A DNA stretch of 64,000 nt from Thermoproteota archaeon (GCA_026986575.1 JALSOH010000004.1:128001-192000); one strand, 5' to 3'; numbered from the stretch's first letter, positions 4,157 to 38,034 are shown. Notes: a model not told the origin generated them from the letters alone. A program made the numbers and translations.

Positions 4157-4252
4157 TCCTCACTCTCCTATCTTCAATTCGAGAATTAGGGTCTCTCCTC
4201 GACGAGGGGCCTCATAACATTTTTATTGGGGTTATACTTATAGGTGGATTGG

Positions 4253-4330
4253 GCTCCGGTGGTGTAGCCCGGTCAAGCATAGGGGCCTTTCGAGCCCCAG
4301 ACCCGGGTTCAAATCCCGGCCGGAGCACCA
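4253..4330 (+). tRNA. tRNA-Glu(TTC)
   Basis: Cloverleaf; anticodon arm GGGGC-CTTTCGA-GCCCC; encoded CCA. Confidence 0.95.
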
Positions 4331-4420
4331 GCGGGGGTAGCCAAGCCAGGTCCAAGGCGCCGGATTCAGGGTCCGGTGGGCGTCAGGCCCGCGTGGGTTC
4401 GAATCCCACCCCCCGCACCA
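4331..4420 (+). tRNA. tRNA-Leu(CAG)
   Basis: CCGGA-TTCAGGG-TCCGG arm, long variable arm, encoded CCA. Confidence 0.95.
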
Positions 4421-4464
4421 CTTGTGATCAAATTTTATAGGGAGGATGATAACTAACCTGTCGA

Positions 4465-4540
4465 AGCCCCGTGGTGTAGCGGCCAAGCACGCCGGGCTTT
4501 GAACCCGGAGACCCCGGTTCGAATCCGGGCGGGGCTACCA
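4465..4540 (+). tRNA. tRNA-Gln(TTG)
   Basis: CCGGG-CTTTGAA-CCCGG arm, A1-U72 pair, encoded CCA. Confidence 0.95.
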
Positions 4541-4575
4541 CCTCCCCCTTCCCTTCCTCCAACCATCCTAAGTGA

Positions 4576-5067
4576 GTGGTATGGATGTGCGACGCCAAGT
4601 TCCTTGTTGACTCAATGGGCGGGAAACTAGCGAAGTGGCTGAGACTACTGGGATGTGACACCGAGTATGTGGATCCCAGAGAGGAGGACTCCTTGATACT
4701 TAGGTCTTCAATCGGCAGGATACTGGTCACTAGGGATAGGGAACTTGTCAAGAGGGCGATTAACTACGGAATTAAGGTGGTAAATGTCCCTGAGCGATTG
4801 GAAGAGGCTCTGGCCATTCTATCAGCGAGCGCAGGGGTGAGGTTGAGGATCAATCCCAAGGAGAGCAGGTGCCCGTTCTGCAACACCAAGTTAGATATCA
4901 TCAAGAGGGCTCAAGTGGTCAAGGAGCTACCTAGGGAGGTCCTCCGCTCCCACATTAAGTTTCTAGTATGCCCGTCATGTGGAAATGTCTTCTGGTTCGG
5001 GACGCATTACTGGAATATGCTCAAGACCCTATCCAAGGTAAAGAAGAAAAGGCGTTCCCTCCAATAG
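4576..5067 (+). CDS. Mut7-C RNase domain protein (DUF82)
   Basis: FLVDSM..KLAKWLRLLG.DT, LVTRD, and a CPFCN...CPSCG..FW.G.H zinc ribbon. Confidence 0.9.
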   Translation: MVWMCDAKFLVDSMGGKLAKWLRLLGCDTEYVDPREEDSLILRSSIGRILVTRDRELVKRAINYGIKVVNVPERLEEALAILSASAGVRLRINPKESRCPFCNTKLDIIKRAQVVKELPREVLRSHIKFLVCPSCGNVFWFGTHYWNMLKTLSKVKKKRRSLQ

Positions 5068-5071
5068 TCTA

Positions 5072-5136
5072 GGGGACCGGTGATGACAGGTGACGGCAAT
5101 GATTCGTGAGAAAACTGACCTACTCTGAGGTCCTCC
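5072..5136 (+). ncRNA. candidate box C/D sRNA (16S helix 34 guides)
   Basis: Intergenic; GGACC/GGTCC terminal stem, C box GTGATGA, D' ATGA, D box CTGA; guides pair imperfectly with 16S 17551-17559 and 17700-17707. Confidence 0.7.
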
Positions 5137-16534: not shown

Positions 16535-18041
<1,507 letters not shown>

Positions 18042-18219: not shown

Positions 18220-21257
<3,038 letters not shown>

Positions 21258-21470
21258 TAGCGCCAGCCGGCGTAATCGCCAACTATGCGGGGCGCGTTCG
21301 TTTTCACACATATATCCATGGAAAACTTTCCTTTCCTAGAGTCTAGGGTCTTTCTAAAAGCTGTTTCGAGCTTTACCCATTTCGTTAACTTCAAGGATTT
21401 ATTTCATTATTATCTCATAATTAAAGGGAAACTTATATTTCTCCCCCCCCCCAGAATCAGGGTGATCATA

Positions 21471-21773
21471 TTGAAGATATATGGGATTGAAAGAGAGGTA
21501 TTTGCACTTTCTCTCGCAATCCTGTTAATACTGCCGTTAGTAGCCAGTATACCAAACTCCATGGGTGTCTGGATAGGGACCTATGTAAGAACGTGGTCTG
21601 TGAAGCGTGCTCACAGGATGGCTAGCTGGGCGCTTGATCAGATTACCGATCCCATCGGATGGGCAATAGGACACCATACTTGGTACACACGCCTCGCATC
21701 TATCGCACTCATAGCTTATACTGGCATTGGACCTTATTACGCGGCATTCACGATAGGATTCACTGTAGGGTGA
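21471..21773 (+). CDS. putative circular-bacteriocin-like precursor 1 (100 aa)
   Basis: GGTGA SD and TTG start; hydrophobic leader, W/A/G-rich amphipathic core ending FTIGFTVG; first gene of a SpoIIM/Yip1/ABC operon. Confidence 0.6.
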   Translation: MKIYGIEREVFALSLAILLILPLVASIPNSMGVWIGTYVRTWSVKRAHRMASWALDQITDPIGWAIGHHTWYTRLASIALIAYTGIGPYYAAFTIGFTVG

Positions 21774-22312
21774 CAGAAATTATTAGAACATCCTGTTTAC
21801 CCGAGTTTTTTATTCTAATCATTTATCTATCATCGTTTGTTGTAGGTACATGGCACACCTTTAACGAAAATGGCGCTCGGGATGGATCCTTCCATCTGAA
21901 GGATGTTAAAAATATTAATATAGATTACCTCGATTTCTTCAGGATGGTATTGTTAAATAATTTAGTGGCAGGTATCTTAATCATTGTGGGAGGATGGTTG
22001 TTCTGCATACCGACTCTCTTAGTCCCCATAGCTTCGGGTTACTTTGCTGGGCTTTACTTTGGAGCTGCTTACAGAGCTTATGGACTCTTCATTTCCTTAA
22101 TTTTGTACATTCCCATGCCCTTGGAGATAGCCGCCATAGTTATCCTAGGTCATGTATCCTTCAAGCTATGTAAGGAGAATCTCAGGAGATTAAGGGGAAA
22201 CGACTCGGATGCTCCTTTGCTCAGAGGCCATATTAAATCTATCACATACGGTATTTTCCTCATAGTTGTAGGTGCTGTGATCGAGACAGTTATTCAATTC
22301 TACATCGGTTAA
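21770..22312 (+). CDS. SpoIIM/DUF95 family membrane protein
   Basis: LNNL..G..I..GG....PT, PLEIAA, C-terminal GAVIET; GTG overlaps the precursor stop codon. Confidence 0.8.
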   Translation: MTEIIRTSCLPEFFILIIYLSSFVVGTWHTFNENGARDGSFHLKDVKNINIDYLDFFRMVLLNNLVAGILIIVGGWLFCIPTLLVPIASGYFAGLYFGAAYRAYGLFISLILYIPMPLEIAAIVILGHVSFKLCKENLRRLRGNDSDAPLLRGHIKSITYGIFLIVVGAVIETVIQFYIG

Positions 22313-22342
22313 ATTCATGAATGAGATCGCCGAGGGAGATTT

Positions 22343-22936
22343 ATGAGGCTATTCTTTTCCTTCATGCTAGTGCTTCTCACGGGAATCATGGTACACCTTT
22401 ACTTCACTATGCCGTTCTTAAAGCCTAGTACCTCCACATACGCCGAAATGGATGTCCGCATTATAAGGGGATCTTTCCTACTCACTCCGGTATTTTCCAG
22501 CCTCATAGTCGTCCTGATATGGGCTGTGGAATCTTCTTTAGCCTCGCTCGTCATCAGAAGATCGGTGAGAGGGGCGGAAAGGTCCCACATAAATTTAGGC
22601 GTCATAATGAGCGAATTTTCCTTGGGATACGTTCCTGAATTTATCTTCCTCCTCATAATAGTCCCGCTCGTATGGTTCAACCTCCCTGAATACACAGTGA
22701 CCTCTGTGAAGGAGCTTATTAACGCATCTAAGAGCCTAGGAGAGTCTCCATTATACGTAAACGGGATGCTCGCTCTGATTGCTGTATCCATATCTCGCTA
22801 TCCCATATACGCAGCCATACTCAGATACAGATTGGATATAGGATGGAGGGAGACCCTCACTATCATCGCCCTGCTTATCATTGTTGATACACTCATAGCT
22901 TTGTGGGGAGGAGGGTTCGACTTAGGTAGGGGGTGA
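22343..22936 (+). CDS. Yip1-like multi-pass membrane protein
   Basis: About 5 TM helices; W.V.S...LV, LGYVP, LRYRLDIGW pattern resembles Yip1. Confidence 0.55.
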   Translation: MRLFFSFMLVLLTGIMVHLYFTMPFLKPSTSTYAEMDVRIIRGSFLLTPVFSSLIVVLIWAVESSLASLVIRRSVRGAERSHINLGVIMSEFSLGYVPEFIFLLIIVPLVWFNLPEYTVTSVKELINASKSLGESPLYVNGMLALIAVSISRYPIYAAILRYRLDIGWRETLTIIALLIIVDTLIALWGGGFDLGRG

Positions 22937-22943
22937 GTTAGGC

Positions 22944-23591
22944 ATGAGAACTGAAGATAACCTCATCTTAGAGGTTAAAAGGATAAGTAAAAGGCTCGGG
23001 AAGAGACAGGTGTTAGCAGATGTGAGCTTCGACGTGAGGAATGGAGAGGTAGTCCTCATAAGGGGGCCCAATGGGTCGGGAAAGACGACGCTTCTAAGAA
23101 CCATTGCTGGGGTGTTTAGACCAGATTCCGGTCGAGTACTCCTATTGGGAAGGGATATTCACGAGGATATGGGTGTGAGGAGAGAAATCAGCTACTGTCC
23201 TGAGAGGCTAGGCCTTCTTGGGGATTACACAATCGAGGATAACATGATGTTCTTTACCAAAGTGTTCGGGAGATCGTTCGACGAGCACAGATTTAGAGAC
23301 TACGTGAAAGGGTTTCGGCTCGAGGGATACTCGGATGACAAGATATCCAAGCTCTCGGCTGGGACTAGGAAGAAGGTGGCTATCATCAGGACTCTCGTCT
23401 TCCCGGCTAGGCTGTACCTGCTTGACGAACCACTAGCTAACCTAGACGAGGAGAGCGTGAGCTTTTTAATTGAGGAAATTAGGAGAATGGCCGATCTAGG
23501 ATCTTCCTTCCTGATATCTTCTCACATAGAGTTCCCGGCTGCTGATCGTGAATTAGAGATGAGAGGTGGGGGACTTGTCGAGGTTAGGTGA
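22944..23591 (+). CDS. ABC exporter ATP-binding protein
   Basis: GPNGSGKTT, LSAG signature, LLDEP, SSH. Confidence 0.95.
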   Translation: MRTEDNLILEVKRISKRLGKRQVLADVSFDVRNGEVVLIRGPNGSGKTTLLRTIAGVFRPDSGRVLLLGRDIHEDMGVRREISYCPERLGLLGDYTIEDNMMFFTKVFGRSFDEHRFRDYVKGFRLEGYSDDKISKLSAGTRKKVAIIRTLVFPARLYLLDEPLANLDEESVSFLIEEIRRMADLGSSFLISSHIEFPAADRELEMRGGGLVEVR

Positions 23592-24309
23592 CCTAATAGC
23601 GGGTCACCTCTACCTAATGGGTGGATTGACCAATGTCAGGGAGATCTTCGTGTTCTTGAGCCCACAGATCCTGTTTTTGGCACTAGCTGAGGTCATAGCA
23701 GGATCCAGGACGTATACAGAATTATTGATGGTTACTTCGTTGCTTGAGAGTTTTTCCTTAGTCATTACGTATATTCTCCTTGGTATCGTGGTGCCGGGGA
23801 GGCTAATCAGATTAAGCTACTCGATGAGAGATGCCGGAATGATGGAGATATTCCTGAATCAGGGGGTTGGATTGGATCAGGTATTGCTGTCTCTCTGGAT
23901 CGGTTCGTCCCTAAAATACTCCTTATACGTGATTGCAGGAAGCCTGATAGCCCTGCTCTCTTTATACCTAGCTGGATGGATGACAGTAGTCGAATTCCTA
24001 ACGGCATTGGGCGTGATCGCCGTCATGGTCACACTCTTCTCGGCAATTTGCATTACCCTATCTCTTATCCTTCCTCCCAGTGAAGCTCAATACTGGTCTC
24101 AATTAGTCTTTTTCCTGATCTTCGGATATTTATACTTAGGTTTCCTCAATCCCCGGAATTACAATGATATCGTGAGGCTCTTCTTGGGCGGATACTTAAA
24201 CCCCATGTCGCTGGGTGGAGGGGCCATAGCAACCTTTCTCGTAATAGTTTTACTGATAGGATTATCTGAGGAGAGGGGGGATATTATTGAAATTGATGAG
24301 GTTAAATAA
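23566..24309 (+). CDS. ABC-2-type permease
   Basis: About 6 TM; RDAGMMEIFL motif equivalent to the ABC-2 E..G..E.L motif. Confidence 0.7.
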   Translation: MGDLSRLGDLIAGHLYLMGGLTNVREIFVFLSPQILFLALAEVIAGSRTYTELLMVTSLLESFSLVITYILLGIVVPGRLIRLSYSMRDAGMMEIFLNQGVGLDQVLLSLWIGSSLKYSLYVIAGSLIALLSLYLAGWMTVVEFLTALGVIAVMVTLFSAICITLSLILPPSEAQYWSQLVFFLIFGYLYLGFLNPRNYNDIVRLFLGGYLNPMSLGGGAIATFLVIVLLIGLSEERGDIIEIDEVK

Positions 24310-24973
24310 TCTAAATGCCCAAATCACCTTGGAATTGACTTTGCTTGTAAGGGGTAGGGGAAAGAGGATCGGGTGGTTAATTAGGGTACTCGTGGTCTCC
24401 ATGGCTGTGCTGTCGCTGGGTCTGCTAAGCTCACTGGAGTTGGGTAATCTCAAAAACATTTACCTATCACTCCCGGGTGTATGGCTCCTGTCTTCGGCCT
24501 TGATGATGGATAATACGGTCGAGATAAAGAATAGCGGTCTTGCTGAGATTTTGCTCCAGACATATGGGCCTTCATATTTGGGTGTGAGGTATCTCCTATA
24601 TACTGTGGTAACGATACTCCTATCAATATCCTTTATTTTGCTGGGAGGCTCTGTAGTTTCACTGATGGTTGGGATAGGATTATCGGGTTTGGATGCCATT
24701 TCCTTGCTATCTCTCTCCGTCATAGGTTCAACGGCTTTAATGACCGTTACAGTCTTATTATCGGTGAAAATTGGTGGCCTGAGGTTATTAGACACCTTTT
24801 CCCTAGCAAGTGGCGGACTTACCCTCCTCCTGATCATTTCCATGCCTTCTATATTGGAGGCGCTTAATCAAGAGTTGTTTGTTTGTATGTTGCTCGCTGG
24901 GACATTCTCCATAGCTGTTCTGACTATAGTGTACCTTAAGAGGCATGACTTTCCGGCATTATTAACAATCTAG
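24287..24973 (+). CDS. ABC-2-type permease
   Basis: About 6 TM; EIKNSGLAEILL motif. Confidence 0.7.
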   Translation: MKLMRLNNLNAQITLELTLLVRGRGKRIGWLIRVLVVSMAVLSLGLLSSLELGNLKNIYLSLPGVWLLSSALMMDNTVEIKNSGLAEILLQTYGPSYLGVRYLLYTVVTILLSISFILLGGSVVSLMVGIGLSGLDAISLLSLSVIGSTALMTVTVLLSVKIGGLRLLDTFSLASGGLTLLLIISMPSILEALNQELFVCMLLAGTFSIAVLTIVYLKRHDFPALLTI

Positions 24974-26074
24974 TGTCTCGATATTTCCCCTCATGTTCTT
25001 CCCTTCATCTTATATTAGGTTAAAGCATCCGAAGGGCTTGAGAAATTAGAAAATTCGAAGAGATTAGGACTTCTAAGGATCCAATCAAGTATAATTTGAG
25101 GAGAACCCTTAGTCGGAGTGACAGTCAAGAACTCAGTATTGTTCTCCTCACCTGAATTCTCTGGAGATTGTTTCGGCAGTACTGTAAATATTTTAACCGG
25201 TTTAAGCCTAATTAGGCGTCCAAGTGAATATTAGGTGGTTAAGGATCATGAGCGAGATGATGATCTTCTATCCTCTCACTTCGATCCTAACAGCATTGTT
25301 CGTAGAACAGAGGCCGCTTGATAATTTTTTATGTTTTTTTATTACTTTTTAGACGATACTATGCGAAGAAATCAAATTATGCGCGTGGTAAAATAATTAA
25401 AAAAGAAATCTTATTTCTTCAGACTTTTTGGAAAAATTACTTCTAAAGAAAATGCCAAAAAATGTGTTAAAAATTAGATACCTTCAACATCTCTTCTTTA
25501 GGAGCAGAGGTGCTTCTCGCCCCAAACACCTAATTTGCATCGATAATACCTTTTTAAGTGGCCTAGGCAGCCACTTGCTTAGTCGAGAATATGCTTTTTA
25601 TTTTGCACCATTTTTTGGTGATGCGTTGCGATAGCGCATATACACTATGTCACCACCTACTATTGGACCTACCCGCATTAGTTACTAATGCGAGCTGGTA
25701 GAGCTCTCGGTGTTTCAGCAAAATTGTTGTATATAGCTCGAGGATCCTTTGGGCCGTTAATCTTGCTAGAGAAGCACTATAATTTACAAAGTTGATGTCC
25801 TTCAGATGGCTTCAGCCAAATATGTCGAGTCAGAAAGGCTCTTAGCCAAGGATGGGGCTGCATGAGTGGCTACCAATAAAGGGATTAACTAACGAATGCA
25901 AGCCTCCGTCTCCGAAGGCCGAGGATACGAAAACTGTGTTTCCAGTAGAAACCATCAAATGGAAGCCACCACACAAATGATAATCTTCTAGATATCAACA
26001 TTGATAACTTGGAAGCTTCCTACTAGGAAAAGGCTAATTGGCTCATAAAGCCATATTTGACATGGGTGTAGGGA

Positions 26075-26275
26075 TTGTCTAAAGCCATATGGGTGAAGTA
26101 TGAGAAGGGGGTATTGAAGCCTCTGGAGGAGCTAGACCTCCCTGAGGGCGAGGTATTGCTTGTAAAGTTAATTGGGACACAATTGGCAGAGAAGGTATTT
26201 GGTTCCATAAAGGTCGATAAGGAGAGGCTCGAGCACTTTCTGAGGGAAGCTGAAGATGAGTTCGGTGTTTATTGA
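26075..26275 (+). CDS. AF2212/DUF104-like antitoxin
   Basis: YEKGVLKPLEELDLPEGE motif; overlaps a PIN gene. Confidence 0.88.
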   Translation: MSKAIWVKYEKGVLKPLEELDLPEGEVLLVKLIGTQLAEKVFGSIKVDKERLEHFLREAEDEFGVY

Positions 26276-26690
26276 TAGTAATGTATTCATTAAATACTTT
26301 GCTGGTGACATAGAGGCTAGGAGGCTCTTAGAACCGATAATTTACGGAGATATGCAGGGCTACATTAATAACGTAATTTTCTCAGAAGTACTCTTCATTT
26401 CAGTAAAGCTTCTCACGGGAAGGAAAGCTTACGAATTAAAGAAGAATCCGGAAATAATCAAGAATATATTCGATAAAATAACGGATTACGTTCTCTTCCT
26501 ACGGCAATACTTCAAAGAGTTAGAGATAAATGAAGAGATAAAGCAATCGGCGTATGAAATAATCAGAGACTACGGGCTACTACCCAACGACTCCTTAATC
26601 GCGGCAACATGCAAACACTACGGCATAGATACCATAGTGACTTTTGATGTAGATTTCAGGCGTATACCGTGGCTCAACGTAGTTCCCTAG
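26256..26690 (+). CDS. vapC: VapC PIN-domain toxin
   Basis: FIDSNV, SEV, PNDSLIAATC, TFD.DF. Confidence 0.92.
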   Translation: MSSVFIDSNVFIKYFAGDIEARRLLEPIIYGDMQGYINNVIFSEVLFISVKLLTGRKAYELKKNPEIIKNIFDKITDYVLFLRQYFKELEINEEIKQSAYEIIRDYGLLPNDSLIAATCKHYGIDTIVTFDVDFRRIPWLNVVP

Positions 26691-27319
26691 GTTTAGGTTT
26701 AGCTGATGAGTCCTAAGCTAGGAGGATATGCGGGAATGAGGCGGTGCAATGAGCACGTCCTGCCTCTTTTATTAGTGTGGTTATGGATGTTCATCGGTTT
26801 TGTTGTCACCAGCATTTTGTTAGCTATATTAAAAGGGTGTAGTTCACTTCAGAGCGTATCATCGAATTGTATAGCAATGAGCCCTACTTAGCGGTTTACG
26901 GCGAGATAACTAGTATGGGAGGGTTACCTCTCCCATCTCAATCCTATGTGGAGACAGTTTCACGATGTATGGTTTTAGAAGGCAGGGAATGCTCTGAGGA
27001 GCTTAGGGTTATTATCTATATTTGCCATTGTCATGTCAACATTGAGAACCATGCGGAGCGACTGATCCTTTGAGAGCTTTAACCTAAAGTTCCCCCTTAA
27101 TGTTTGGTATGCAGTATTGGGTGTCTTAGCTTACGGTTCTCTAGAGATTTTCTTTGTGGTATGGCTTATAGTAAATGTCTATAGGGTACCTAATAAGTGT
27201 GGAAGGTTATTATCTCATGAGCTACTCATCACTGCTACAATACTTAGTTTGTCGCATTTGGTACTATCCCCTGCAGGTGGAGATCAACGAGAAGGCTGGT
27301 GGGAAGGATTACCCCGTAA

Positions 27320-27743
27320 GTTATGGTCTACTCCCTTCTCCTCAGCCCACTTGATCAGCGATAATGCAAGCTTTTCTATGTCACTGTAGAGCTTATCCTC
27401 CAAGATTTTCCTCACGATATAAAGATCCACAGACTAATACTGATTGATCACAACGTTCCTGAATCTTATGATCTTCCTGAACAGCTCAGCCTCGGGATCG
27501 CTCAGGCAGCTCTCCCGTTTCAGGATCTGAGGGATTCCTATAACTCTAGGGGACAGCAGCTCCAACCTTCGAGGCTGTATGAGCCGTCAGAGCTATGAAC
27601 GCTTGAGATGCTAACTGGAGGGCGTGTAGAGCTGATAGAAGGAGAAACTTATCCTTTAAAATAGCGATTCCGTGTCTCTGAATCCCCTCATCCAGTAACT
27701 CGGTGCCCTCCCTGATGACTTATAGGAGCCTCTCGTTTCTCAT
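27320..27743 (-). pseudogene. HepT/DUF86 RNase toxin pseudogene
   Basis: Reads LHALQLASQA...IIRFRNVVINQY*SVD; several in-frame stops; RxxxxH His lost; 3' end approximate. Confidence 0.7.
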
Positions 27744-27900
27744 CTCAGATCCCTCTCCGCGGCCTTTAAGAACTTCCTCCTGAGGTCCAACTTCTCCCTG
27801 AAGACGAGGTAGTCTAGGTATTGGGAGAGGATCCTTCTCTTATTACTCGCTGCAGAGCTGGGGATCCGAGGATCAGAGCGGGATCTCAGATTACAGCGTC
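27740..27900 (-). pseudogene. remnant of cognate MNT antitoxin (C-terminus only)
   Basis: SQYLDYLVFREKLDLRRKF...* directly overlapping the HepT start. Confidence 0.4.
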
Positions 27901-27950
27901 GTACAGGAGGCGCGCGCATTCATGCGATAACCCATATGGATCCTCTGCTT

Positions 27951-28466
27951 TTACCCTTCAGCTGAACTCTCTCCGCTTTCTTCACCGCTCCTCTTCTCCT
28001 TCCAAGGTTCTCTTAGTTCTCCTGGCTCTGAGAGCTTATCACCGTACTTGTAGAACAATATGTAGATGAAATAGCTCCCTGCCACTAAGAAGGCAAAGTC
28101 ACGAAGCTCTTTGCCGGGAATTAAGTCTGAGCTAATCCCCAGTCTGATGAGCGTATACGGATAAAGCACTACCATCATAACGTAGAAGGTTATCAGAGAG
28201 AAGAAGACGTATATGAGAGCATATCTCGTTCTCCTTACTTCCAGCATGTAGTAGTCGATCGCACCGATCAGCCCGAAGCTGGTAATTACTATGAGCACTC
28301 CTTCTATAAAAGGTAGATACCTGTTATTCTTACTGGCAACCGGAAAGTATGTAATGAAATGATAGATTAGCATGGCAAAAAGCATAAATATAGTAAATAA
28401 TATCCTCTCTTTGGATGATTTATTTGAACCTCCTACATCTTGAGGCCTTAAGGTACGCATTGACAT
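27951..28466 (-). CDS. four-TM membrane protein, putative immunity protein
   Basis: Four hydrophobic segments; overlaps the 3' end of the Cys-rich precursor gene. Confidence 0.5.
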   Translation of the reverse strand: MSMRTLRPQDVGGSNKSSKERILFTIFMLFAMLIYHFITYFPVASKNNRYLPFIEGVLIVITSFGLIGAIDYYMLEVRRTRYALIYVFFSLITFYVMMVVLYPYTLIRLGISSDLIPGKELRDFAFLVAGSYFIYILFYKYGDKLSEPGELREPWKEKRSGEESGESSAEG

Positions 28467-29245
28467 ACCGTACCTACCTCGCTACAACATCCGCCATACA
28501 GGGTAAATACTAAGCAAAAGGGACACCAGACTATCAAGCATTCCCAGAATGCCGGAACATTTCTACAGCTAGCGCAGCAATTGAGAAGACATGAGATATT
28601 CCATCTACAGCAGTACGCGGAGCAACTGCAGTAGTCCCCACATGAATCATATCCTGGATATGCTGTGCAATTATGAGCGCAACTGCTCAAATTTATATAT
28701 GAACCATTGATGATTCTAGCATCAATTGATATATAGTCTTTATGAGAGCTGAGAATCAACGCTATACTTCTAATTTCATTGACTAATTTAGTGCCCTTCA
28801 TATAAATTAAATACTTTCTTTCCTTAAGTGGGATTAGAAGCAGTACTGCTGTGACTATATCTCCATCGACCGAAAATCTAATGAGCGAGCCTTTAGGTTG
28901 AGATGCCTTAAGATCATTTACATTAAGTGCGCCCCTCTCTATAAGAGAAATCACATCATTTGATTTTAAAGCCTCTGTAACGAAATTTTTGAGCTCTGCT
29001 CCCTCCAGTTTCATGTGATCCAATTCAACAAAATAGGGTTCATTTCTTAATCCTTTGTTCGCCTTTATTTTGAGATCTCCTGTACAAGTAATTGATACTA
29101 TGCTGAGAAGAGATGCCTTTAATGCTTCTTTAATAAACCTCCTTCTGCTCAAATTAATTCTCCATAGGCGCATGAGCGTAATAGACATTCCTGAAATATA
29201 AATTCTACGTTCTATTCCTATGCATTCTTTCCTTGAGAATCTCAC
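28448..29245 (-). CDS. Tat-exported halocin-C8-like precursor with 18-Cys C-terminal domain
   Basis: LSRRRFIK twin-arginine motif plus h-region; ~77-aa C-terminus with 18 Cys; real start likely ATG 29188. Confidence 0.6.
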   Translation of the reverse strand: MRFSRKECIGIERRIYISGMSITLMRLWRINLSRRRFIKEALKASLLSIVSITCTGDLKIKANKGLRNEPYFVELDHMKLEGAELKNFVTEALKSNDVISLIERGALNVNDLKASQPKGSLIRFSVDGDIVTAVLLLIPLKERKYLIYMKGTKLVNEIRSIALILSSHKDYISIDARIINGSYINLSSCAHNCTAYPGYDSCGDYCSCSAYCCRWNISCLLNCCASCRNVPAFWECLIVWCPFCLVFTLYGGCCSEVGTVCQCVP

Positions 29246-29518
29246 CTTACCCTCTACATTTCCGCCCTCAGGCCATATCGCGTTTAGGGCTTCCTTGAAT
29301 CCTAGATCCGCTGATCTGAACAGTCTGATCGCAAGTTCCTTGAGGTAGAGACCAATTTGCCTCCTTTAACTTGGCCTTTATTAACTCTTTGTTCTTTCTC
29401 GCTTTTGTCTCCTTTATTCTCGTCTCTACGATTCTTCTGAGCTTCTCAGCGCGCGAATAGGATTATTAAAGTTCATCACAGATCTTCGGGAATTCGTTAA
29501 ATACTTCCCGAAGATTTA

Positions 29519-29945
29519 ATGCTTGGAACCCTCATGAGGGACGAAGCCAGAAGGTGGTTCTCTGAGGCGAGATGGAACTTGGAGACCGCTAGGATATTGC
29601 ATGATAGGGGAAGATACAACGCCGCTTGCTTTTACGCTCATAGCCGCGGAGATGGCTGTCAAAGCCCTCTTGATAAGCAGGAACGAGCCTCCTTGGAGCC
29701 ACGGCGTGAGGGCCCTGCTCGAGAGGTATTCGGAGATCAGTGGTGAGGACGTGTCCCTCCTCTTACCTCACGCCAGGGAGCTGGACAGGCACTACATCCC
29801 CTCCAGATATCCGAACGCCCATCCATACGGGACGCCCCACGAGGCTTACGACAAGCCAACCTCCATAAAGGCCATCGGAAGCGCGGAACTAATATTGGGT
29901 TACGTGGAGGATAGGTTGGATGGATCTCAGGAAGCTGGTGAATAG
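29519..29945 (+). pseudogene. HEPN-domain protein, frameshifted near 29641
   Basis: ACFYAH in one frame continues as AAEMAVKA...LDRHYIPSRYP in another. Confidence 0.8.
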
Positions 29946-30312
29946 GATAAGGGAGAGGTATAGGGTCTACGCGATCATACTCTTCGGCTCACGGGCCAGG
30001 GGAGACTGGCTCCCTCACAGTGATTACGATCTTCTCGTCGTGGCCGAATTCAAAGAGCCCTTCCTAGACAGGATCTACGAGCTCTCCGGATTGGCTAAGG
30101 GCCCTGTGGAATTCCATCCCTACACCCTCTACGAGGTGAGGGAATTACTGAGGAGGGGCGTTCCATCGATCGTTGATGCCCTCGAGGAGGGCATCGTCCT
30201 CTACGAGGGGGAGGAGTTCAGGGAGGTGAGGGAGCTTTTCGAGGAGATGAAGAGGAAGGGGCTCAGGAGGAGCGGTGTATCGATCATATTGCCCGGAGGT
30301 GATCAGCCGTAG
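29920..30312 (+). CDS. minimal nucleotidyltransferase (MNT)
   Basis: LFGSRARGD....SDYDLLVV. Confidence 0.92.
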   Translation: MDLRKLVNRIRERYRVYAIILFGSRARGDWLPHSDYDLLVVAEFKEPFLDRIYELSGLAKGPVEFHPYTLYEVRELLRRGVPSIVDALEEGIVLYEGEEFREVRELFEEMKRKGLRRSGVSIILPGGDQP

Positions 30313-31376: not shown

Positions 31377-31673
31377 GGGGGAGAGGAGGCCGGGGGTTAC
31401 GGCCGTAAGGCTGAGGAAGGTCCGCCCACGCCCCCAGCACCGCCTCCCCGTAAGGGGATGCCCCGAGAGGGGCAGGAAGGCCCACAGAAACGACACGTCC
31501 CTCGGGGCATGGCGATGATGCCGGTGAGGCAGAGGACCCCGAGGGGACCGGTGAAACGGGGCCCCGGCGGTGTGCAAGCCAGTCCCCGCAATGAGCAGCT
31601 GGGGCGAGCGGGGGGTAGGCGCTCAGCCGAATCCCCCAAGTACAGAAGGCGGACTATGGCCTCCACTCCCCCC
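31377..31673 (+). ncRNA. rnpB: RNase P RNA
   Basis: GAGGAAGGTCCGC ... ACAGAAAC ... TGAAAC ... TACAGAAGGCGGACTAT (P4) and terminal P1 helix. Confidence 0.95.
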
Positions 31674-32369: not shown

Positions 32370-33441
32370 GTGCACATGGTAAGCGAGAAAGTACGGAGTC
32401 AGAAAGTTACTCCTAGGGGAAGACGCATCCCTCATGACCTCAGAATGGAACTCTACTTTTTAGTTAGAGAGCCCCGCGATAGAGGGATGAGTTATCGTGA
32501 GATTCAGAGAATTGTGGAAAGGGAGCGCGGTATCAAAATAAGCAGGTCTCACATATCCTACTGGATTCACGGCCTTCATACCCCGCTAAACGAGCCCTAC
32601 AATCATGTCGATACTTCCAAGAAGGGTGAGCTGGCTTGGATAGCAGGGATGTTCGTAGGGGATGGTTCCGTGAAGATCAACAGGAAGGGTCGCTTCTTGG
32701 TGCTGAAAGTTAAGGATAGGGAGCTAGCGGAGGCTGCCGCTAATAAACTGGCAGTTGTTCTGGGAAAGGGAGAGAGGTACGCGGTAAACAGGATGGGGGA
32801 CGGTAGGTACTACGTACAGGTCCAGTCGAGGGAACTAGTCGACCACTTGAGAGCGTGGGAGAACATTCTCTCGCATCTAGAGAGAAGCCCTAGAGAGTTC
32901 ATTCAGGCACTCTTCGATTGTGAGGGCGGACCTATAGGACACGTTAGTGCATCTGGCAGGTTCTTCGCCAGAATAGATGTAGGTAATACCAATAGAGAGT
33001 TGCTCGAGGATGTATCCCTGAAGCTCTCTGACATGGGGATTCCAATCAACCGTTTCGATGCATTATCCCAAGGGAAAGGTTTTCGTAACTAGGAAGGGGA
33101 GATCCGTGGCTAGAAGAGACTGTTACTTCTTAAGGATATATCGGCAGGGGGGCATCATTAGGTACCGGGATGAGGTTGGATTTGTCACTTCAAGGAAGCA
33201 GGAGAAGCTAGAGGACATAGTTTACATCCTCTCTAATCTCGGATCTGGACGGGAAGCTGCCGTGGAGTGGATTAGGAGATACGAATACAAGAGAGGGATG
33301 GGCCGCCAGAGGTGGTTCAGGAGGGAGAGGTTCCTTGAATGGGAGGATGCTGTTAAGGAGTATGAGAGGTTCTTAGCCAGGAGATCGGCGATTAATCGTT
33401 ATTATAGGTCACAGCATTCCCCTCTTTCTGCAGGCCTCTAG
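32370..33441 (+). pseudogene. free-standing HTH + double LAGLIDADG endonuclease, frameshifted near 33044
   Basis: GMSYREI HTH, AWIAGMFVGDG and FIQALFDCEG motifs; removing one A joins the two ORFs. Confidence 0.8.
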
Positions 33442-35694: not shown

Positions 35695-36294
35695 TTAGGG
35701 ATAGAGTGCGTGATTTTTTAATAACTGCTGGGCAGCAATCTTCGGATAATATATTCTCAGCACTATGTCCGTCAAAAGAAGCATGAGTATCATTGCTACG
35801 TCGTCCACCCTCTTCATCCCATATCTATGATTGAAAACACGATAGAAGTAGATGAAGGATAGAGTCGAGAAGGAAGTATCGATTAGCGCCTTGATTGATG
35901 AGTATAGCTCGATACTAGATGCTCCTATAATGGGAAGAAGCACTAGATCCGTTACTAGTGATATAGACGAAAAGAGGAAGTAAAAGGATACAACACTCAG
36001 TATTGGGGAGAGCGGACCCTTATACACGCTTCTATAAAACAAGAAGAGGTAAGTTAGTGCTCCCAGCAGGCCCCAAAGTAGGGCTCCGGTGAAGCTGCTT
36101 CCTAACAATACAAAATATGCGATAACATATGGGGGAATGGATTGATTGGCTACACCCAGCTCGTTCAAGACGATCATTAGGTACAAGGATTGAGTACCCG
36201 TGTAGAGCAAGTATAGGAGAAGGGGCCTTCTCCTATTGGATGGAGGGCTATTGTTAAGCAGATCCGGATTTTCTTCTCTTCTACATATGGCCAT
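35695..36294 (-). CDS. Yip1-like multi-pass membrane protein
   Basis: About 5 TM; W.L.G.L.YL, Y..F...YGM pattern; last gene of cluster 2. Confidence 0.5.
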   Translation of the reverse strand: MAICRREENPDLLNNSPPSNRRRPLLLYLLYTGTQSLYLMIVLNELGVANQSIPPYVIAYFVLLGSSFTGALLWGLLGALTYLFLFYRSVYKGPLSPILSVVSFYFLFSSISLVTDLVLLPIIGASSIELYSSIKALIDTSFSTLSFIYFYRVFNHRYGMKRVDDVAMILMLLLTDIVLRIYYPKIAAQQLLKNHALYP

Positions 36295-36841
36295 TTAACT
36301 TCACCAAGATGCAAGGTATTGAGAGATAATATTCTATAACTGATGATAATATTATCATAATTAAACTTAATAACGCCAATTTTGTTAAATAAACTAACTG
36401 ATCTCTGGAGAGGTCATAGTGATCCCCGCCATGGATGACCGTTACGGCGCTCGAAAGACCTACGGATGAGGAGATGAGGATAGAAGTGATCTCCAGCGGC
36501 CCGTGGAATAGAAAGCAGGGGAGTGCACCTGTCAAGTTTTCTCTGAGAATTTCCCTGACGATGCTACCTACCACCATGCCGTTGAAGCTAAGGGAGAGAG
36601 CCGTGAGCGTTCCAAGTGTCACATATCCTATGGAAAGAATCAGGATAACGGAACTGTTCAAGAGTATAAGTCCGCGTAAATCATAATGTCCATTAAAGGA
36701 ATGAGGAACGAAAACTCCACCTAACCCTTCTGTGTAAGATTGATCTGGGATCAGGAAACTTCCTAAGATCCCGGCCGCATAGAAAAGCGATGCTAAGATC
36801 AGTCCCTCACCCACCCTTGGGCCTTGTTTCGTCCCTACCAT
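36281..36841 (-). CDS. SpoIIM/DUF95 family membrane protein
   Basis: LNS.V.L, FNGMVVG, FHGPLEI, SSVIEYY signatures. Confidence 0.88.
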   Translation of the reverse strand: MVGTKQGPRVGEGLILASLFYAAGILGSFLIPDQSYTEGLGGVFVPHSFNGHYDLRGLILLNSSVILILSIGYVTLGTLTALSLSFNGMVVGSIVREILRENLTGALPCFLFHGPLEITSILISSSVGLSSAVTVIHGGDHYDLSRDQLVYLTKLALLSLIMIILSSVIEYYLSIPCILVKLNGHM

Positions 36842-37778
36842 GGCTCATCCTCCTGATGATCTCTATTCTCTTCTCCAAGCTAGGATGCGTTGGAAGTAGG
36901 GAGGGGGTTTCCTTCATTCCATATATTTTGATCAGAGCGTTTATCAGATCCTCTGGATTTGAGTAAGATGCTGCAATGAGATCGGCCTTGACCTCCCTCC
37001 TCCTTATCAGGATTAAGAAGACCGACAACGCTGCCAAGAAGCCAGCCACCACTAGCAGGAAGATTACGGGATCGCGTTTCGTTACTGCCCCCGTTAGGGA
37101 GGAGGGTACTTCGCCTACAAGGAGTAGCATCGCGTACATCAGTAGTGTGTAGCCCAGATACCTGGCGATGTCTCCTTCTTTATAATGGGCGAGTTCGTGG
37201 GCCAGTACGCTCTTGATCTCTCCATTAGACAGCACCTTAAGCAGATCCTCATTTATGAAGACAGTCGGTTGAACGATCCCGCCAAGAAGCGCGGTTTTCA
37301 TTAGAGAGGATCTGAATAATCGGAGCCTTATATTCTTCCTGATCTCCATCTTTCCCTTAAGATCCTCGAAAACCCTCTTCAGATCGTCCGGGGGGTCTCT
37401 CCCCTGACCAATCTTATCGAAGATTATAGGAACCAGATTAACTGTGACGAACAGTACTACGAGAAGAGTGGAGAATTCCACTAGGATGCTGTGGTTGGGA
37501 AGTGAGGAGATCACAGCAGCGTAGATGAAGATCAAATATAAATCGAAATAATTGAGCAGGAGATCCTTGAATAATCTCCTGGCTCCCGGGCTTTCCTTAC
37601 GAAGAATGGGGTCTACAAGGGAGAGAATTATAGCAGCTAGTATCAAGATGAAAAATCCTGTGATAAGGGGGTTAAGCCTGTACTCCACCACGAGGATTAC
37701 GGTAAGAGACATCATAGCTACTGTTATGAGAGCCATCACTAAATTGTAAAGAGAAAAAAATGGAGAGTTAGTTCCCAA
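36807..37778 (-). CDS. M48 family membrane zinc metallopeptidase
   Basis: HELAH, REVKAD, THPSLEKRI; four N-terminal TM helices. Confidence 0.92.
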   Translation of the reverse strand: MGTNSPFFSLYNLVMALITVAMMSLTVILVVEYRLNPLITGFFILILAAIILSLVDPILRKESPGARRLFKDLLLNYFDLYLIFIYAAVISSLPNHSILVEFSTLLVVLFVTVNLVPIIFDKIGQGRDPPDDLKRVFEDLKGKMEIRKNIRLRLFRSSLMKTALLGGIVQPTVFINEDLLKVLSNGEIKSVLAHELAHYKEGDIARYLGYTLLMYAMLLLVGEVPSSLTGAVTKRDPVIFLLVVAGFLAALSVFLILIRRREVKADLIAASYSNPEDLINALIKIYGMKETPSLLPTHPSLEKRIEIIRRMSHGRDETRPKGG

Positions 37779-37788
37779 TGTAGATCCC

Positions 37789-38034
37789 TTATCCTATTAA
37801 AAAGCTCCCTACTGCTACAAGGGCGCCAGTGAGACCCGTAATTGGAGTACTGCATGCTGCTATTTTTGCTAGGGCTAAGAAATACCCTCCAAGTGCTACC
37901 GCAGCTGCTCCATAGTTACCTTTTGCAAGTAGATAGCCTATTCCCAACTGAGTGGCTGCAGGTGTTAATATAGGAACCACTAGTATTGCTATATTGAGGG
38001 CGAGGAGGGCTAGGGCTTTCTTTTCTGTCTTCAT
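37789..38034 (-). CDS. putative circular-bacteriocin-like precursor 2 (81 aa)
   Basis: Hydrophobic A/G/L-rich helical peptide ending VGSFLIG; heads the M48-SpoIIM-Yip1 operon. Confidence 0.65.
   Translation of the reverse strand: MKTEKKALALLALNIAILVVPILTPAATQLGIGYLLAKGNYGAAAVALGGYFLALAKIAACSTPITGLTGALVAVGSFLIG

What the first reader, a model, noticed from the sequence alone, without database searches (positions are those of the whole stretch)
21471..24973. Archaeal circular-bacteriocin-like cluster 1: precursor + SpoIIM + Yip1-like + ABC exporter, right after the 23S rRNA
Seen: a lower-GC six-gene operon starting ~200 nt after the rRNA operon. The ORF track over-extends the first two genes. 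The better reading is a 100-aa Trp/Ala/Gly-rich precursor (SD + TTG 21471) coupled by a GTGA overlap to a DUF95 protein, followed by a Yip1-like gene, an ABC ATPase and two ABC-2 permeases. Established: precursor/DUF95/ATPase/membrane proteins is the core layout of circular bacteriocin clusters. Inference: a second, sequence-distinct RiPP-type archaeocin.
Basis: partly seen in the sequence, partly recalled or inferred. Interest (0 to 1): 0.85.

Follow-up and report, generated by a model that had tools for sequence, protein, structure and literature searches.

The report
Archaeal circular-bacteriocin-like peptide gene cluster
Right after the ribosomal RNA genes, this vent archaeon carries a rare six-gene module with the gene set that Gram-positive bacteria use to make ring-closed antimicrobial peptides, but nothing yet shows that the small peptide it encodes is cut, closed into a ring or toxic.

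Summary
A tight six-gene operon (21471-24973, +) starts 214 nt after the 23S rRNA. It encodes a 100-aa peptide, a SpoIIM/DUF95 protein, a 5-TM Yip1-like protein, an ABC ATPase and two membrane proteins.

The small ORF is a real gene. It has three relatives with a conserved SD-plus-start, a conserved core and a conserved ...GFTxG end. Against the 55%-identical ortholog, pN is 0.30 and pS 0.86.

It is accessory: 3 of 38 genomes of the order carry it. It is one of four small-peptide-plus-short-SpoIIM modules in this genome. Nearly every relative has only one vertically inherited RDD-SpoIIM fusion.

The gene set matches what papers call the characteristic components of Bacillota circular-bacteriocin clusters. 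The SpoIIM's only plasmid hit sits in a Bacillus cereus small-ORF/Yip1-like/SpoIIM/M48 locus.

Not shown:
- homology of the peptide to any known bacteriocin family (none found)
- its fold (AlphaFold pLDDT 52)
- expression, cleavage, cyclisation or activity

I found no archaeal case in the papers searched. This scan has noted similar modules in Asgard archaea. Verdict: a new variant of a known kind. Confidence in the bacteriocin-like reading is about 0.55; cyclisation itself about 0.4.

The parts
21285..21348 (+). Two terminator-like hairpins with T-runs after the 23S rRNA (21285-21297 and 21334-21348). They suggest that the cluster is not simply read through from the rRNA operon.
   Evidence: a consensus scan only; 2 found against 3.9 expected in shuffles, so weak.
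21400..21467 (+). A/T-rich promoter-like stretch, with TATA-like TTATATTT at 21433-21440 and ATAATTAAA near 21417-21425. It is followed by the Shine-Dalgarno match GGTGATC at 21461-21467.
   Evidence: Sequence. The 16S 3' end GGATCACCTCC is. An equivalent SD and an A/T-rich stretch precede the G012 ortholog. The promoter assignment is inference.
21471..21773 (+). Precursor-like peptide gene, 100 aa, TTG start. GTG 21462 is an in-frame alternative that adds 3 aa.
   Evidence: Relatives: 95% identity (G017), 55% (G012) and P0002 (97 aa). Against G012, pN is 0.30 and pS 0.86 over 95 aligned codons.
21471..21560 (+). Predicted leader (residues 1-30). It looks like a signal peptide: a charged start, a hydrophobic stretch with an invariant Pro, and small residues (..AS or ..NS) just before the conserved Met.
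   Evidence: Alignments. Hydropathy maximum 2.53 for residues 10-28. The cleavage site is inferred from where conservation begins.
21561..21770 (+). Predicted core peptide (residues 31-100, 70 aa): pI 9.7, net charge about +2.8, GRAVY 0.32. Conserved motifs are M(G/N)VW..TY, DPIG, HTWYTR and a C-terminal GFTxG directly before the stop.
   Evidence: The core hydropathy maximum of 1.32 is below the 1.6 TM threshold used. AlphaFold predicts three helices but at pLDDT 52.5.
21770..22312 (+). SpoIIM/DUF95 membrane protein, 180 aa from GTG 21770, overlapping the precursor's stop codon by 4 nt.
   Evidence: PF01944 at E 1.4e-15. AlphaFold pLDDT 82.1, pTM 0.74, an all-helical membrane protein. 31% identity over 166 aa to the SpoIIM of a B. 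cereus plasmid bacteriocin-like locus.
22343..22936 (+). 197-aa membrane protein with 5 predicted TM segments. It is Yip1-like by position and by a structure lead only.
   Evidence: No Pfam or NCBIfam family. ESM Atlas: the best structural neighbour is a Yip1-family cluster (TM 0.59, 162 residues aligned), and 21 of 30 feature hits fall in one set whose listed cluster has PF04893 on 13% of its members. TM count.
22944..23591 (+). ABC transporter ATP-binding protein, 215 aa.
   Evidence: PF00005 at E 1.6e-30. The best NCBIfam hit is TIGR01189 ccmA at 138.6 bits against a cut-off of 131.6.
23566..24309 (+). 247-aa membrane protein, the presumed permease 1. Its GTG start overlaps the ATPase gene by 26 nt, and the N-terminus is conserved in G012.
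   Evidence: 5 TM segments. Weak ABC2_membrane_5 hit at E 0.38.
24287..24973 (+). 228-aa membrane protein, the presumed permease 2. It overlaps permease 1 by 23 nt.
   Evidence: 5 TM segments. No family found. An ortholog is present in G012 (226 aa).
21258..25119 (+). Extent of the module shared with genome G017, which is 96.5% identical and collinear from within the 23S rRNA (20577) to 25119. The window's next 4.35 kb (25120-29470) are absent from G017.
   Evidence: blastn.

Best explanation
This is an accessory gene module that makes, exports and protects against a small membrane-active peptide. It is built like the circular (head-to-tail cyclised) bacteriocin clusters of Bacillota.

Proposed course:
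1. The 100-aa product is made with a 30-residue signal-like leader that takes it to the membrane.
2. The leader is removed just before the conserved Met31. In cluster 1 this would be done by a host signal peptidase. In the sister cluster 2 it may be done by the M48 peptidase encoded there.
3. The cationic 70-residue core, which always ends in GFTxG, is handled by a membrane complex of the SpoIIM/DUF95 protein and the Yip1-like protein. That complex probably joins its two ends.
4. The ABC ATPase with the two membrane proteins exports the peptide and/or keeps it out of the producer's own membrane.
5. The peptide then acts on competing cells.

Shown: the genes, their conservation, their tight coupling, their accessory and multi-copy distribution, and the match of the gene set to bacterial clusters.

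Inferred: the cleavage site, ring closure, export, target and toxicity.
For: (1) The small ORF is a real coding gene.
- Relatives exist in 3 of 38 genomes of the order, G000 included.
- A further 97-aa relative, P0002, came from a profile search of 1.84 billion representatives.
- Against G012, pS is 0.855 and pN 0.303 over 95 codons.
- An SD-like motif and a start codon are conserved in position.

(2) Precursor anatomy.
- Only the leader is hydrophobic enough for a TM segment (2.53 against 1.32 for the core).
- The core is 70-76 aa, with pI 9.7-10.9.
- The ORF ends right after GFTxG in 4 of 4 family members.
- A related ending occurs in two other paralogous small ORFs of this genome..SFLIG, and ..GFLIG followed by two more residues.

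(3) Gene set.
- PF01944 SpoIIM and PF00005 ABC ATPase are present, with a Yip1-like lead and two further membrane proteins.
- Passages name precursor, SpoIIM/DUF95, YIP1 and ABC as the characteristic components. One search calls SpoIIM class-defining.

(4) Link to a bacterial locus.
- The only plasmid hit of this SpoIIM is a B. cereus plasmid gene (31% identity, 90% coverage, E 0.4; E 2e-11 in the small local database).
- That gene lies in a locus of small ORF, weakly Yip1-like protein, SpoIIM and M48.
- Its 82-aa ORF hits PF12173 (cyclic gassericin A-like) at E 6.5e-4, 20.4 bits, below the cut-off of 27.
- Its M48 protein matches the M48 of this window's cluster 2 (27% identity, E 2e-10).

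(5) Accessory and repeated.
- The genome has 5 SpoIIM genes. Four are short and each has an upstream small hydrophobic ORF. The fifth is an RDD-SpoIIM fusion.
- In the phylum search, 13 short copies lie in 5 of 32 genomes, while the long fusion is near-universal.
- In the tree, 29 of 30 fusion copies form one clade (SH-aLRT 93). The short copies are 5-6 long-branched lineages.

(6) Two other small ORFs are also under constraint: 17 synonymous against 6 non-synonymous changed codons, and 9 against 3.

(7) The order of the two sub-operons differs in G012: ABC genes first, then precursor-SpoIIM-197aa. This fits a modular cluster.
Against: - No sequence relation of the peptide to any known bacteriocin family: 0 Pfam families at E<=10 and no meaningful NCBIfam hit. 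The ESM Atlas gave nothing usable.
- AlphaFold on 4 sequences gave pLDDT 52.5 and pTM 0.23, so the compact helical fold with adjoining ends that defines circular bacteriocins is untested.
- The leader looks like an ordinary Sec signal peptide. That would suffice for secretion without any special maturation.
- No small cationic immunity-type ORF lies inside cluster 1.
- A C-terminal Gly is, as far as I recall, not the usual last residue of characterised circular bacteriocins (recalled, not checked).
- SpoIIM-family proteins also have other roles. PMC5898192 (passages) proposes membrane remodelling for the archaeal family.
- Between the window and G017 the precursor differs in 6 codons, 5 of them non-synonymous. 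This is too few to interpret.
- The family is very narrow: one genus plus one unplaced protein.
Confidence: 0.55

Rival explanations
1. A linear secreted or membrane-anchored peptide. The 100-aa product would be an ordinary Sec substrate whose signal peptide is removed. The 70-aa peptide stays linear. SpoIIM, the Yip1-like protein and the ABC transporter serve only in export or self-protection, as with unmodified or leaderless bacteriocins. There is no ring closure.
For: - The leader has the layout of a Sec signal peptide: a charged start, a hydrophobic stretch, a helix-breaking Pro, and small residues at -3 and -1 before Met31 in 2 of 4 members.
- Yip1 proteins also turn up in papers on leaderless bacteriocin clusters (search listing only).
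- No enzyme for ring closure is established even in bacteria (passages).
Against: - A SpoIIM/DUF95 gene is treated as class-defining for circular bacteriocins.
- The strict conservation of the very last residues, GFTxG then stop, in 4 of 4 members is easier to explain if the C-terminus takes part in a reaction.
- The 4-nt overlap with the SpoIIM gene points to a fixed stoichiometric partnership.
Confidence: 0.25
2. A membrane module with no antagonistic role. The small protein would be a subunit or substrate of a SpoIIM-centred membrane complex (membrane remodelling, vesicle formation or transport), and the ABC transporter moves something else.
For: - PMC5898192 (passages) links archaeal SpoIIM (arCOG01994) to membrane remodelling.
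- The peptide has no detectable bacteriocin relatives.
- The ABC ATPase's best family is not bacteriocin-specific.
Against: - The cluster occurs in only 3 of 38 genomes of the order.
- This genome has four unrelated small ORFs next to four fast-evolving short SpoIIM paralogs, against one conserved fusion copy in nearly every genome.
- It lies in lower-GC DNA next to toxin-antitoxin genes.
Patchy, multi-copy and fast-evolving is the pattern of conflict systems, not of housekeeping complexes.
Confidence: 0.15
3. A CcmA-type haem exporter. The ATPase would be CcmA, the two membrane proteins its CcmB/CcmC-like partners, and the small ORF and SpoIIM would be unrelated neighbours.
For: The ATPase scores 138.6 bits on TIGR01189 ccmA, above that model's cut-off of 131.6.
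Against: - Neither membrane protein matches any Pfam or NCBIfam family, CcmB and CcmC included.
- The genes are translationally coupled to the precursor-SpoIIM pair in the window, and again adjacent in G012.
- The module is absent from most relatives.
- Many other short ABC ATPase families score almost as well.
Confidence: 0.03
4. The 100-aa ORF is not a gene, and the operon starts with SpoIIM.
For: - It has a TTG start and no family.
- Gene callers chose a different, longer start (P0001, 151 aa).
Against: - Four family members keep the frame, with indels in multiples of three.
- pN 0.30 against saturated pS 0.86.
- Conserved SD and start.
- Conserved stop position.
Confidence: 0.02

Closest known systems
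Circular-bacteriocin gene clusters of Bacillota with precursor, SpoIIM/DUF95, YIP1 protein and ABC transporter (pumilarin, altitudin A and cerecyclin type; passages in 10.1101/2025.10.31.685828, PMC8534725 and PMC8659200)
   Same: - A small precursor gene, a DUF95/SpoIIM gene, a roughly 200-aa five-helix Yip1-like membrane protein, a short ABC ATPase and extra membrane proteins, all in one tight operon.
- An accessory, patchy distribution.
- A cationic core of about 70 residues.
   Different: - The host is an archaeon, probably hyperthermophilic by its 64-68% GC rRNA.
- The precursor matches no known family.
- The leader is signal-peptide-like.
- The core ends in Gly.
- No small immunity ORF and no large (about 500 aa) membrane protein are in the cluster.
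- Yip1 membership is not shown by sequence.
M48-bearing circular-bacteriocin clusters: the altitudin S subgroup (preprint) and the locus on Bacillus cereus plasmid NZ_CP090086.1 (L047). A Geobacillus plasmid, CP017693.1, is similar.
   Same: - The window's cluster-1 SpoIIM is 31% identical over 166 aa to the B. cereus one. That is better than its match to any paralog in its own genome.
- The window's cluster 2 (35695-38034) has the same parts as the B. cereus locus: small ORF, M48, SpoIIM and a membrane protein.
   Different: - Cluster 1 itself has no M48 gene.
- The small ORFs are not detectably related (E 1.9).
- In the tree the bacterial pair sits among the archaeal short copies without support (SH-aLRT 28), so no transfer can be claimed.
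Subgroup II (gassericin A-like) circular bacteriocins, Pfam PF12173
   Same: A small Gly/Ala-rich hydrophobic product next to DUF95. The B. cereus comparator's small ORF hits this family weakly. I recall that this subgroup has long, partly hydrophobic leaders (recalled, not checked).
   Different: None of the four small ORFs of this genome hits PF12173 even at E<=10. The cluster-1 core is cationic. From recall, subgroup II peptides are near-neutral or acidic.
Archaeal housekeeping SpoIIM (arCOG01994 / COG1300), here an RDD-SpoIIM fusion
   Same: The same Pfam domain, PF01944.
   Different: - The fusion is 460-577 aa. It is present in 33 of 38 genomes of the order, one per genome, and tracks the species tree on short branches.
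- The cluster copies are 172-223 aa, occur in 5 of 32 genomes and sit on long branches.
Similar modules noted earlier by this scan in Asgard archaea (e1-5563187 Lokiarchaeon, e1-5700885 Thorarchaeota) and a Bacteroidota peptide/zinc-protease/SpoIIM cassette (e1-5199921)
   Same: A small, very hydrophobic peptide gene next to SpoIIM/DUF95, with Yip1 and ABC genes in one case and a membrane zinc protease in another. All are rare and foreign-looking.
   Different: They lie in other phyla and other DNA. They are unchecked AI notes that I did not test. No sequence relation to this window's peptide was examined.

Membership tests
Circular (head-to-tail cyclised) bacteriocin gene cluster | A small precursor gene (under about 130 aa) with a leader and a core of roughly 58-70+ residues | tested here: met
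   A 100-aa ORF, with the leader/core boundary inferred at residue 30/31 from conservation. The core is 70 aa, or 76 aa in G012.
Circular (head-to-tail cyclised) bacteriocin gene cluster | A SpoIIM/DUF95 membrane protein gene in the cluster (called class-defining in PMC13289728) | tested here: met
   PF01944 at E 1.4e-15, 58 bits against a cut-off of 26.9. It overlaps the precursor gene by 4 nt.
Circular (head-to-tail cyclised) bacteriocin gene cluster | An ABC transporter ATPase and accessory membrane or permease proteins | tested here: met
   PF00005 at E 1.6e-30. Two adjacent 5-TM proteins. ABC-2 membership is only weak (E 0.38).
Circular (head-to-tail cyclised) bacteriocin gene cluster | The precursor belongs to a known circular-bacteriocin family (e.g. 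PF12173 and others in Pfam/NCBIfam) | tested here: not met
   0 Pfam families at E<=10. The only NCBIfam hit is an irrelevant one at E 0.015. The profile search of 1.84 billion proteins finds only its own narrow family.
Circular (head-to-tail cyclised) bacteriocin gene cluster | A compact 4-5 helix globular fold with N- and C-termini adjacent | tested here: inconclusive
   AlphaFold2 on the 4-sequence core alignment gave three helices, pLDDT 52.5 and pTM 0.23. This is too poor to compare, so no fold search was run on it.
Circular (head-to-tail cyclised) bacteriocin gene cluster | A small cationic hydrophobic immunity protein encoded in the cluster (common, not universal) | tested here: not met
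   No free-standing small ORF lies between or after the six genes within the module shared with G017. A 61-aa candidate of this kind exists in the sister locus of G020.
Circular (head-to-tail cyclised) bacteriocin gene cluster | A peptide bond between the first and last residue of the mature product, and antimicrobial activity | not testable with these tools
   This needs mass spectrometry and bioassay. No RNA run holds the region either.
Yip1 family (PF04893), for the 197-aa protein | A match to the Yip1 profile | tested here: not met
   No Pfam hit at E<=10. hhalign against the B. cereus Yip1-like neighbour gave probability 0.4.
Yip1 family (PF04893), for the 197-aa protein | A five-helix Yip1-like fold | tested here: inconclusive
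   5 TM segments by hydropathy. The Atlas's best structural neighbour is a cluster that is 100% PF04893, at TM 0.59 over 162 residues, flagged 'under the bar'.
CcmABC haem exporter | A CcmA ATPase together with CcmB and CcmC membrane partners | tested here: not met
   The ATPase passes TIGR01189 (138.6 against 131.6 bits). Neither membrane protein matches any family.
SpoIIM (PF01944) | A match above Pfam's gathering score over the whole domain | tested here: met
   58 bits, profile positions 2-161 of 163. A confident helical membrane model, pLDDT 82.1.

The most novel reading that the evidence does not exclude
Archaea of a small hydrothermal-vent lineage make genuine head-to-tail cyclised peptides with a DUF95/SpoIIM-Yip1-ABC machinery. 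One genome keeps an arsenal of four such modules with unrelated peptides, which share a signal-peptide-like leader with an invariant Pro and, in three of the four, a G-F-x-[IV]-G tail. These would be the first circular 'archaeocins'. They would show that this maturation route spans both prokaryotic domains and works at very high temperature. They would also offer a new family, with its conserved tail motif, in which to look for the still unidentified cyclisation step.
Probability: 0.4. Interest if true: 0.8.

Novelty: new variant of a known kind. Interest (0 to 1): 0.62.

Why it matters
Known archaeal antimicrobial peptides are few: halocins, sulfolobicins and lanthipeptides.

The large in-silico surveys of circular bacteriocins that I could read report only bacteria. 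PMC8534725 counts Firmicutes 6,925, Actinobacteria 2 and Thermotogae 1. PMC7132975 and PMC8659200 do not contain the word archaea.

If these modules work as proposed, three things follow:
- They extend a well-studied class of ultra-stable peptides to archaea and to vent temperatures.
- They show that one genome can carry several unrelated peptides served by diverged copies of the same machinery.
- They give comparative leverage on an open question: which protein removes the leader and closes the ring. The levers are the conserved tail motif, the invariant Asn and two Glu residues in the short SpoIIM copies, and M48-bearing against M48-less variants side by side in one genome.

If they do not, they still define an unrecognised, fast-evolving accessory branch of the archaeal SpoIIM family that always travels with a small exported peptide.

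Tried and rejected
- AlphaFold2 of the 70-aa core (4 sequences) gave pLDDT 52.5. I therefore ran no fold search on it.
- ESM Atlas on the precursor: the best score was 0.75 to an unnamed bacterial cluster, with no structure held. Unusable.
- Complex prediction, SpoIIM with precursor: no answer (score 0.01, mark 0.32).
- Expression: no RNA holder is listed for the region. Laying three DNA runs (contigs) showed only presence in two possible source samples and fragments in a third, with no joints.
- Foldseek of the confident SpoIIM model against the PDB: 0 matches at E<=0.001, best E 0.63, TM at most 0.38. No mechanistic clue.
- Word-index protein searches found only the window's own proteins: precursor 1 of 8 candidates, SpoIIM 1 of 345.
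- The search for related loci with the 10-sequence SpoIIM alignment could not be run, because it had no conserved stretch.
- The search for related loci with the 3-sequence SpoIIM alignment found only the two known relatives in genome contigs, nothing in viral contigs, and one false lead in metagenome contigs. That lead, L051, is a sensor/cyclase-type protein that shares a short GGWLLCIPT-like stretch.
- The precursor alignment found nothing in metagenome contigs.
- hhalign among the accessory membrane proteins of the different modules and the B. cereus Yip1-like protein: all probabilities at most 0.5.
- Direct repeats that could bound an inserted element: only two short chance-like families, none flanking the module.
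- The sigma-70 promoter scan does not apply to archaea.
- The tree cannot say whether the cluster-1 SpoIIM came from bacteria, because the joining branch has SH-aLRT 28.
- The CcmA reading and the 'not a gene' reading were considered and rejected (see rivals).
- A possible 14th short copy (G034:C103, 27.3 bits, genome 78% complete, at a contig start) was left out of the counts as too weak. G015:C104 (235-aa open frame) is a fusion copy cut by the contig end.

Full report
WHAT IS THERE.

The window is archaeal. It holds a 16S rRNA at 16535-18041, a 23S rRNA at 18220-21257 and an archaeal RNase P RNA at 31381-31668. It is G000:C4:128001-192000 of a 1.91-Mb, 11-contig genome.

Six same-strand ORFs follow the 23S. 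Their gaps and overlaps are -4, +30, +7, -26 and -23 nt. GC is 0.43-0.50 here, against 0.55-0.59 beyond 29500.

Pfam names the second ORF SpoIIM (PF01944, E 1.4e-15) and the fourth an ABC ATPase (PF00005, E 1.6e-30). The others get no family, apart from a weak ABC2_membrane_5 hit (E 0.38) for the fifth.

IS THE SMALL ORF A GENE, AND WHERE DOES IT START?

A search of the 38 genomes of the order found it in 3, G000 included. G017 has it at 95% identity, also right after the 23S. G012 has it at 55% identity.

A profile search of 1.84 billion representative proteins gave 3 hits at E<=0.001:
- the window's own cluster
- a fourth member, P0002 (97 aa)
- a spurious repeat protein

The long upstream extension of the ORF track is not conserved. 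G017 has a stop upstream, and G012 and P0002 start at an ATG that aligns near residue 6.

The 16S 3' end is GGATCACCTCC. GGTGATC sits 3 nt before TTG 21471, and GAGGGTGACC sits 6 nt before the G012 ATG.

Against G012, synonymous sites are saturated (pS 0.855) while pN is 0.303 over 95 aligned codons. This is a translated, constrained gene.

ANATOMY OF THE PEPTIDE.

The first 30 residues look like a signal peptide. The hydropathy maximum is 2.53 for residues 10-28, and a Pro is invariant in the three cluster-1-type sequences aligned full-length and across the genome's four different small ORFs.

Strong conservation starts at S-M-(G/N)-V-W. It runs through DPIG and HTWYTR to a terminal GFTxG. 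All four ORFs stop directly after that Gly.

The 70-residue core is cationic (pI 9.69, charge +2.8). It is only moderately hydrophobic (maximum 1.32, below the 1.6 used for TM segments).

AlphaFold2 predicts three helices, but at pLDDT 52.5. The fold is therefore unknown.

THE OTHER GENES.

- The SpoIIM gene starts at GTG 21770 inside the precursor's stop (GTGA). The same is true in G017.
- Its AlphaFold model is confident (pLDDT 82.1) but resembles nothing in the PDB.
- The 197-aa protein has five predicted TM segments and no profile hit.
- The ESM Atlas's own model of the 197-aa protein has a Yip1-family cluster as its best neighbour (TM 0.59, 162 residues aligned). 21 of 30 feature hits fall in one set whose listed cluster has PF04893 on 13% of its members. 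'Yip1-like' is thus a lead, not a membership.
- The ATPase formally passes the CcmA model (138.6 against 131.6 bits), but its membrane partners match neither CcmB nor CcmC.

CONTEXT IN THE GENOME AND ITS RELATIVES.

The genome has five SpoIIM genes. One is a 460-aa RDD-SpoIIM fusion. A long copy of this kind (474-577-aa open frames) occurs once in almost every relative: 33 of 38 genomes have a PF01944 hit, and 21 of 21 high-quality ones do.

The other four are short, at 180-207 aa. Each has a small hydrophobic ORF upstream on the same strand:
- 100 aa in cluster 1
- 81 aa in cluster 2, at window 37789-38034 on the minus strand, followed by an M48 peptidase, a SpoIIM and a 199-aa membrane protein
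- 94 aa on C6
- 86 aa on C1

Genome-wide, such small ORFs number 80, so 0.027 are expected per upstream window. The criterion was set after the fact.

In the phylum (32 genomes at least 80% complete) I count 13 short copies in 5 genomes. The profile used was built from 10 of them, so I separate them from the fusions by open-frame length and by the tree, not by score.

Of these 13 loci:
- 9 have a clear leader-plus-core small ORF
- 3 have small hydrophobic ORFs of another shape
- 1 is cut by a contig end

Several of these are orthologs of each other. The independent peptide families number about five.

Two further small ORFs also show constraint: 17 synonymous against 6 non-synonymous changed codons, and 9 against 3.

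In a quick ML tree, 29 of 30 fusion copies form one clade (SH-aLRT 93) with short branches. The short copies form 5-6 long-branched lineages.

G017 is collinear with the window at 96.5% identity from within the 23S to 25119. It then skips to 29471. The module proper is therefore 21258-25119, and the window has a further 4.35-kb insert behind it.

In G012 the ABC genes precede the precursor on a 3.4-kb contig whose two ends are cut genes. This is a cyclic permutation of the window's order.

COMPARISON WITH WHAT IS KNOWN.

Passages I read say that circular-bacteriocin clusters characteristically hold a precursor, SpoIIM/DUF95, a YIP1 membrane protein and ABC transporter subunits. Sources: the altitudin S preprint, PMC8534725, PMC8659200 and PMC7132975. 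PMC13289728 says SpoIIM is class-defining.

The same passages say that some clusters add an M48 peptidase. They also say that the enzymes for leader removal and ring closure are still unknown.

The window's SpoIIM has a single tblastn hit among 72,556 plasmids: a Bacillus cereus plasmid gene at 31% identity over 90% of the query. In the small local database the E-value is 2e-11, better than to any paralog of its own genome.

That gene lies in a locus of small ORF, weakly Yip1-like protein (E 0.15), SpoIIM and M48. Its 82-aa ORF hits the cyclic gassericin-A-like family PF12173 at E 6.5e-4, which is below the gathering score. Its M48 protein matches the window's cluster-2 M48 at E 2e-10.

So both archaeal layouts, with ABC (cluster 1) and with M48 (cluster 2), have bacterial counterparts.

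The archaeal peptides themselves match no known family.

NOVELTY.

Full-text searches combined circular or cyclised bacteriocins with archaea, archaeocin, DUF95, SpoIIM, M48 or Yip1. They returned no paper describing such a cluster in an archaeon.

- PMC10105419 on archaeal RiPPs holds neither 'circular' nor 'head-to-tail'.
- I could not read the 2019 mBio survey of archaeal antimicrobial systems (not held) or any supplement.
- This scan's own earlier, unchecked notes describe comparable modules in two Asgard archaea and a Bacteroidota cassette. Within the scan, the kind has therefore been seen before on other DNA.

MECHANISM AND ODDS.

I commit to a bacteriocin-like peptide module at 0.55. 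The steps would be signal-like leader removal before Met31, handling and probably head-to-tail ligation by the SpoIIM/Yip1-like membrane complex, and export and self-protection by the ABC proteins. Cyclisation itself I put near 0.4.

The main rival is a linear secreted peptide that uses the same helpers (0.25). Next is a non-antagonistic membrane module (0.15). Nothing experimental is available, and the decisive test is mass spectrometry for a junction-spanning peptide.

Noticed in passing
window 35695-38034 (- strand): A second module ('cluster 2'). It has an 81-aa Gly/Ala-rich small ORF (37789-38034), a 323-aa membrane M48 peptidase (36807-37778; PF01435, E 3.1e-22), a SpoIIM (36281-36841) and a 199-aa membrane protein (35695-36294). 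The whole module is conserved in G017, and its M48 (cut by the contig end), SpoIIM and membrane protein genes in G012. The layout is the same as a B. cereus plasmid locus and the M48-bearing altitudin S type.
   Followed up: partly
G000:C6:405061-406435 and G000:C1:32242-33989: Two more small-ORF-plus-short-SpoIIM modules lie elsewhere in the genome, with a 94-aa and an 86-aa small ORF. The ortholog of the C1 module in G020 has a 61-aa cationic membrane ORF between the peptide gene and SpoIIM, which looks like an immunity protein. The flanks of the C1 module carry an AF2212-like/PIN pair and a small membrane ORF similar to those at window 26075-26891.
   Followed up: partly
window 27951-29245 (- strand): A two-gene unit inside the 4.35-kb insert that G017 lacks. 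The 265-aa protein has a twin-arginine-type motif (SRRRFIK) near its start and 18 Cys in its last 90 residues. It overlaps a 171-aa membrane protein gene. Neither has a Pfam or NCBIfam family.
   Followed up: no
L046 / L050 (G012:C25, 3428 bp): The whole contig is ATPase (cut), permease, permease, precursor, SpoIIM and 197-aa homolog (cut). This is a cyclic permutation of the window's gene order. It could be a tandem duplication collapsed in assembly, a circular form, or a true rearrangement.
   Followed up: no
L043 (G032:C21), 3732-5104: In another genus, a short SpoIIM follows a 99-aa hydrophobic ORF. An Rce1-like (CPBP) intramembrane protease comes next (PF02517, E 2.2e-10). From recall, that family is linked to bacteriocin self-immunity in bacteria.
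   Followed up: no
window 26075-26690 and 29601-30312: Toxin-antitoxin-type pairs flank the region: AF2212-like with PIN (E 9.5e-17 and 5e-19), and HEPN with a nucleotidyltransferase (E 3.8e-14 and 6.1e-13).
   Followed up: partly
window 21471-21773 against L007:885-1187: Between the two near-identical genomes, the precursor differs in 6 codons, 5 of them non-synonymous. The adjacent SpoIIM has 9 synonymous and 7 non-synonymous changed codons. This may hint at diversifying change, but the numbers are too few to test.
   Followed up: partly
window 32370-33441: Two adjacent ORFs of 240 and 127 aa. The first has a LAGLIDADG-like stretch (..IAGMFVGDGS..) and lies just downstream of a tRNA. It may be a homing-endonuclease remnant. 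It was not checked against any family.
   Followed up: no
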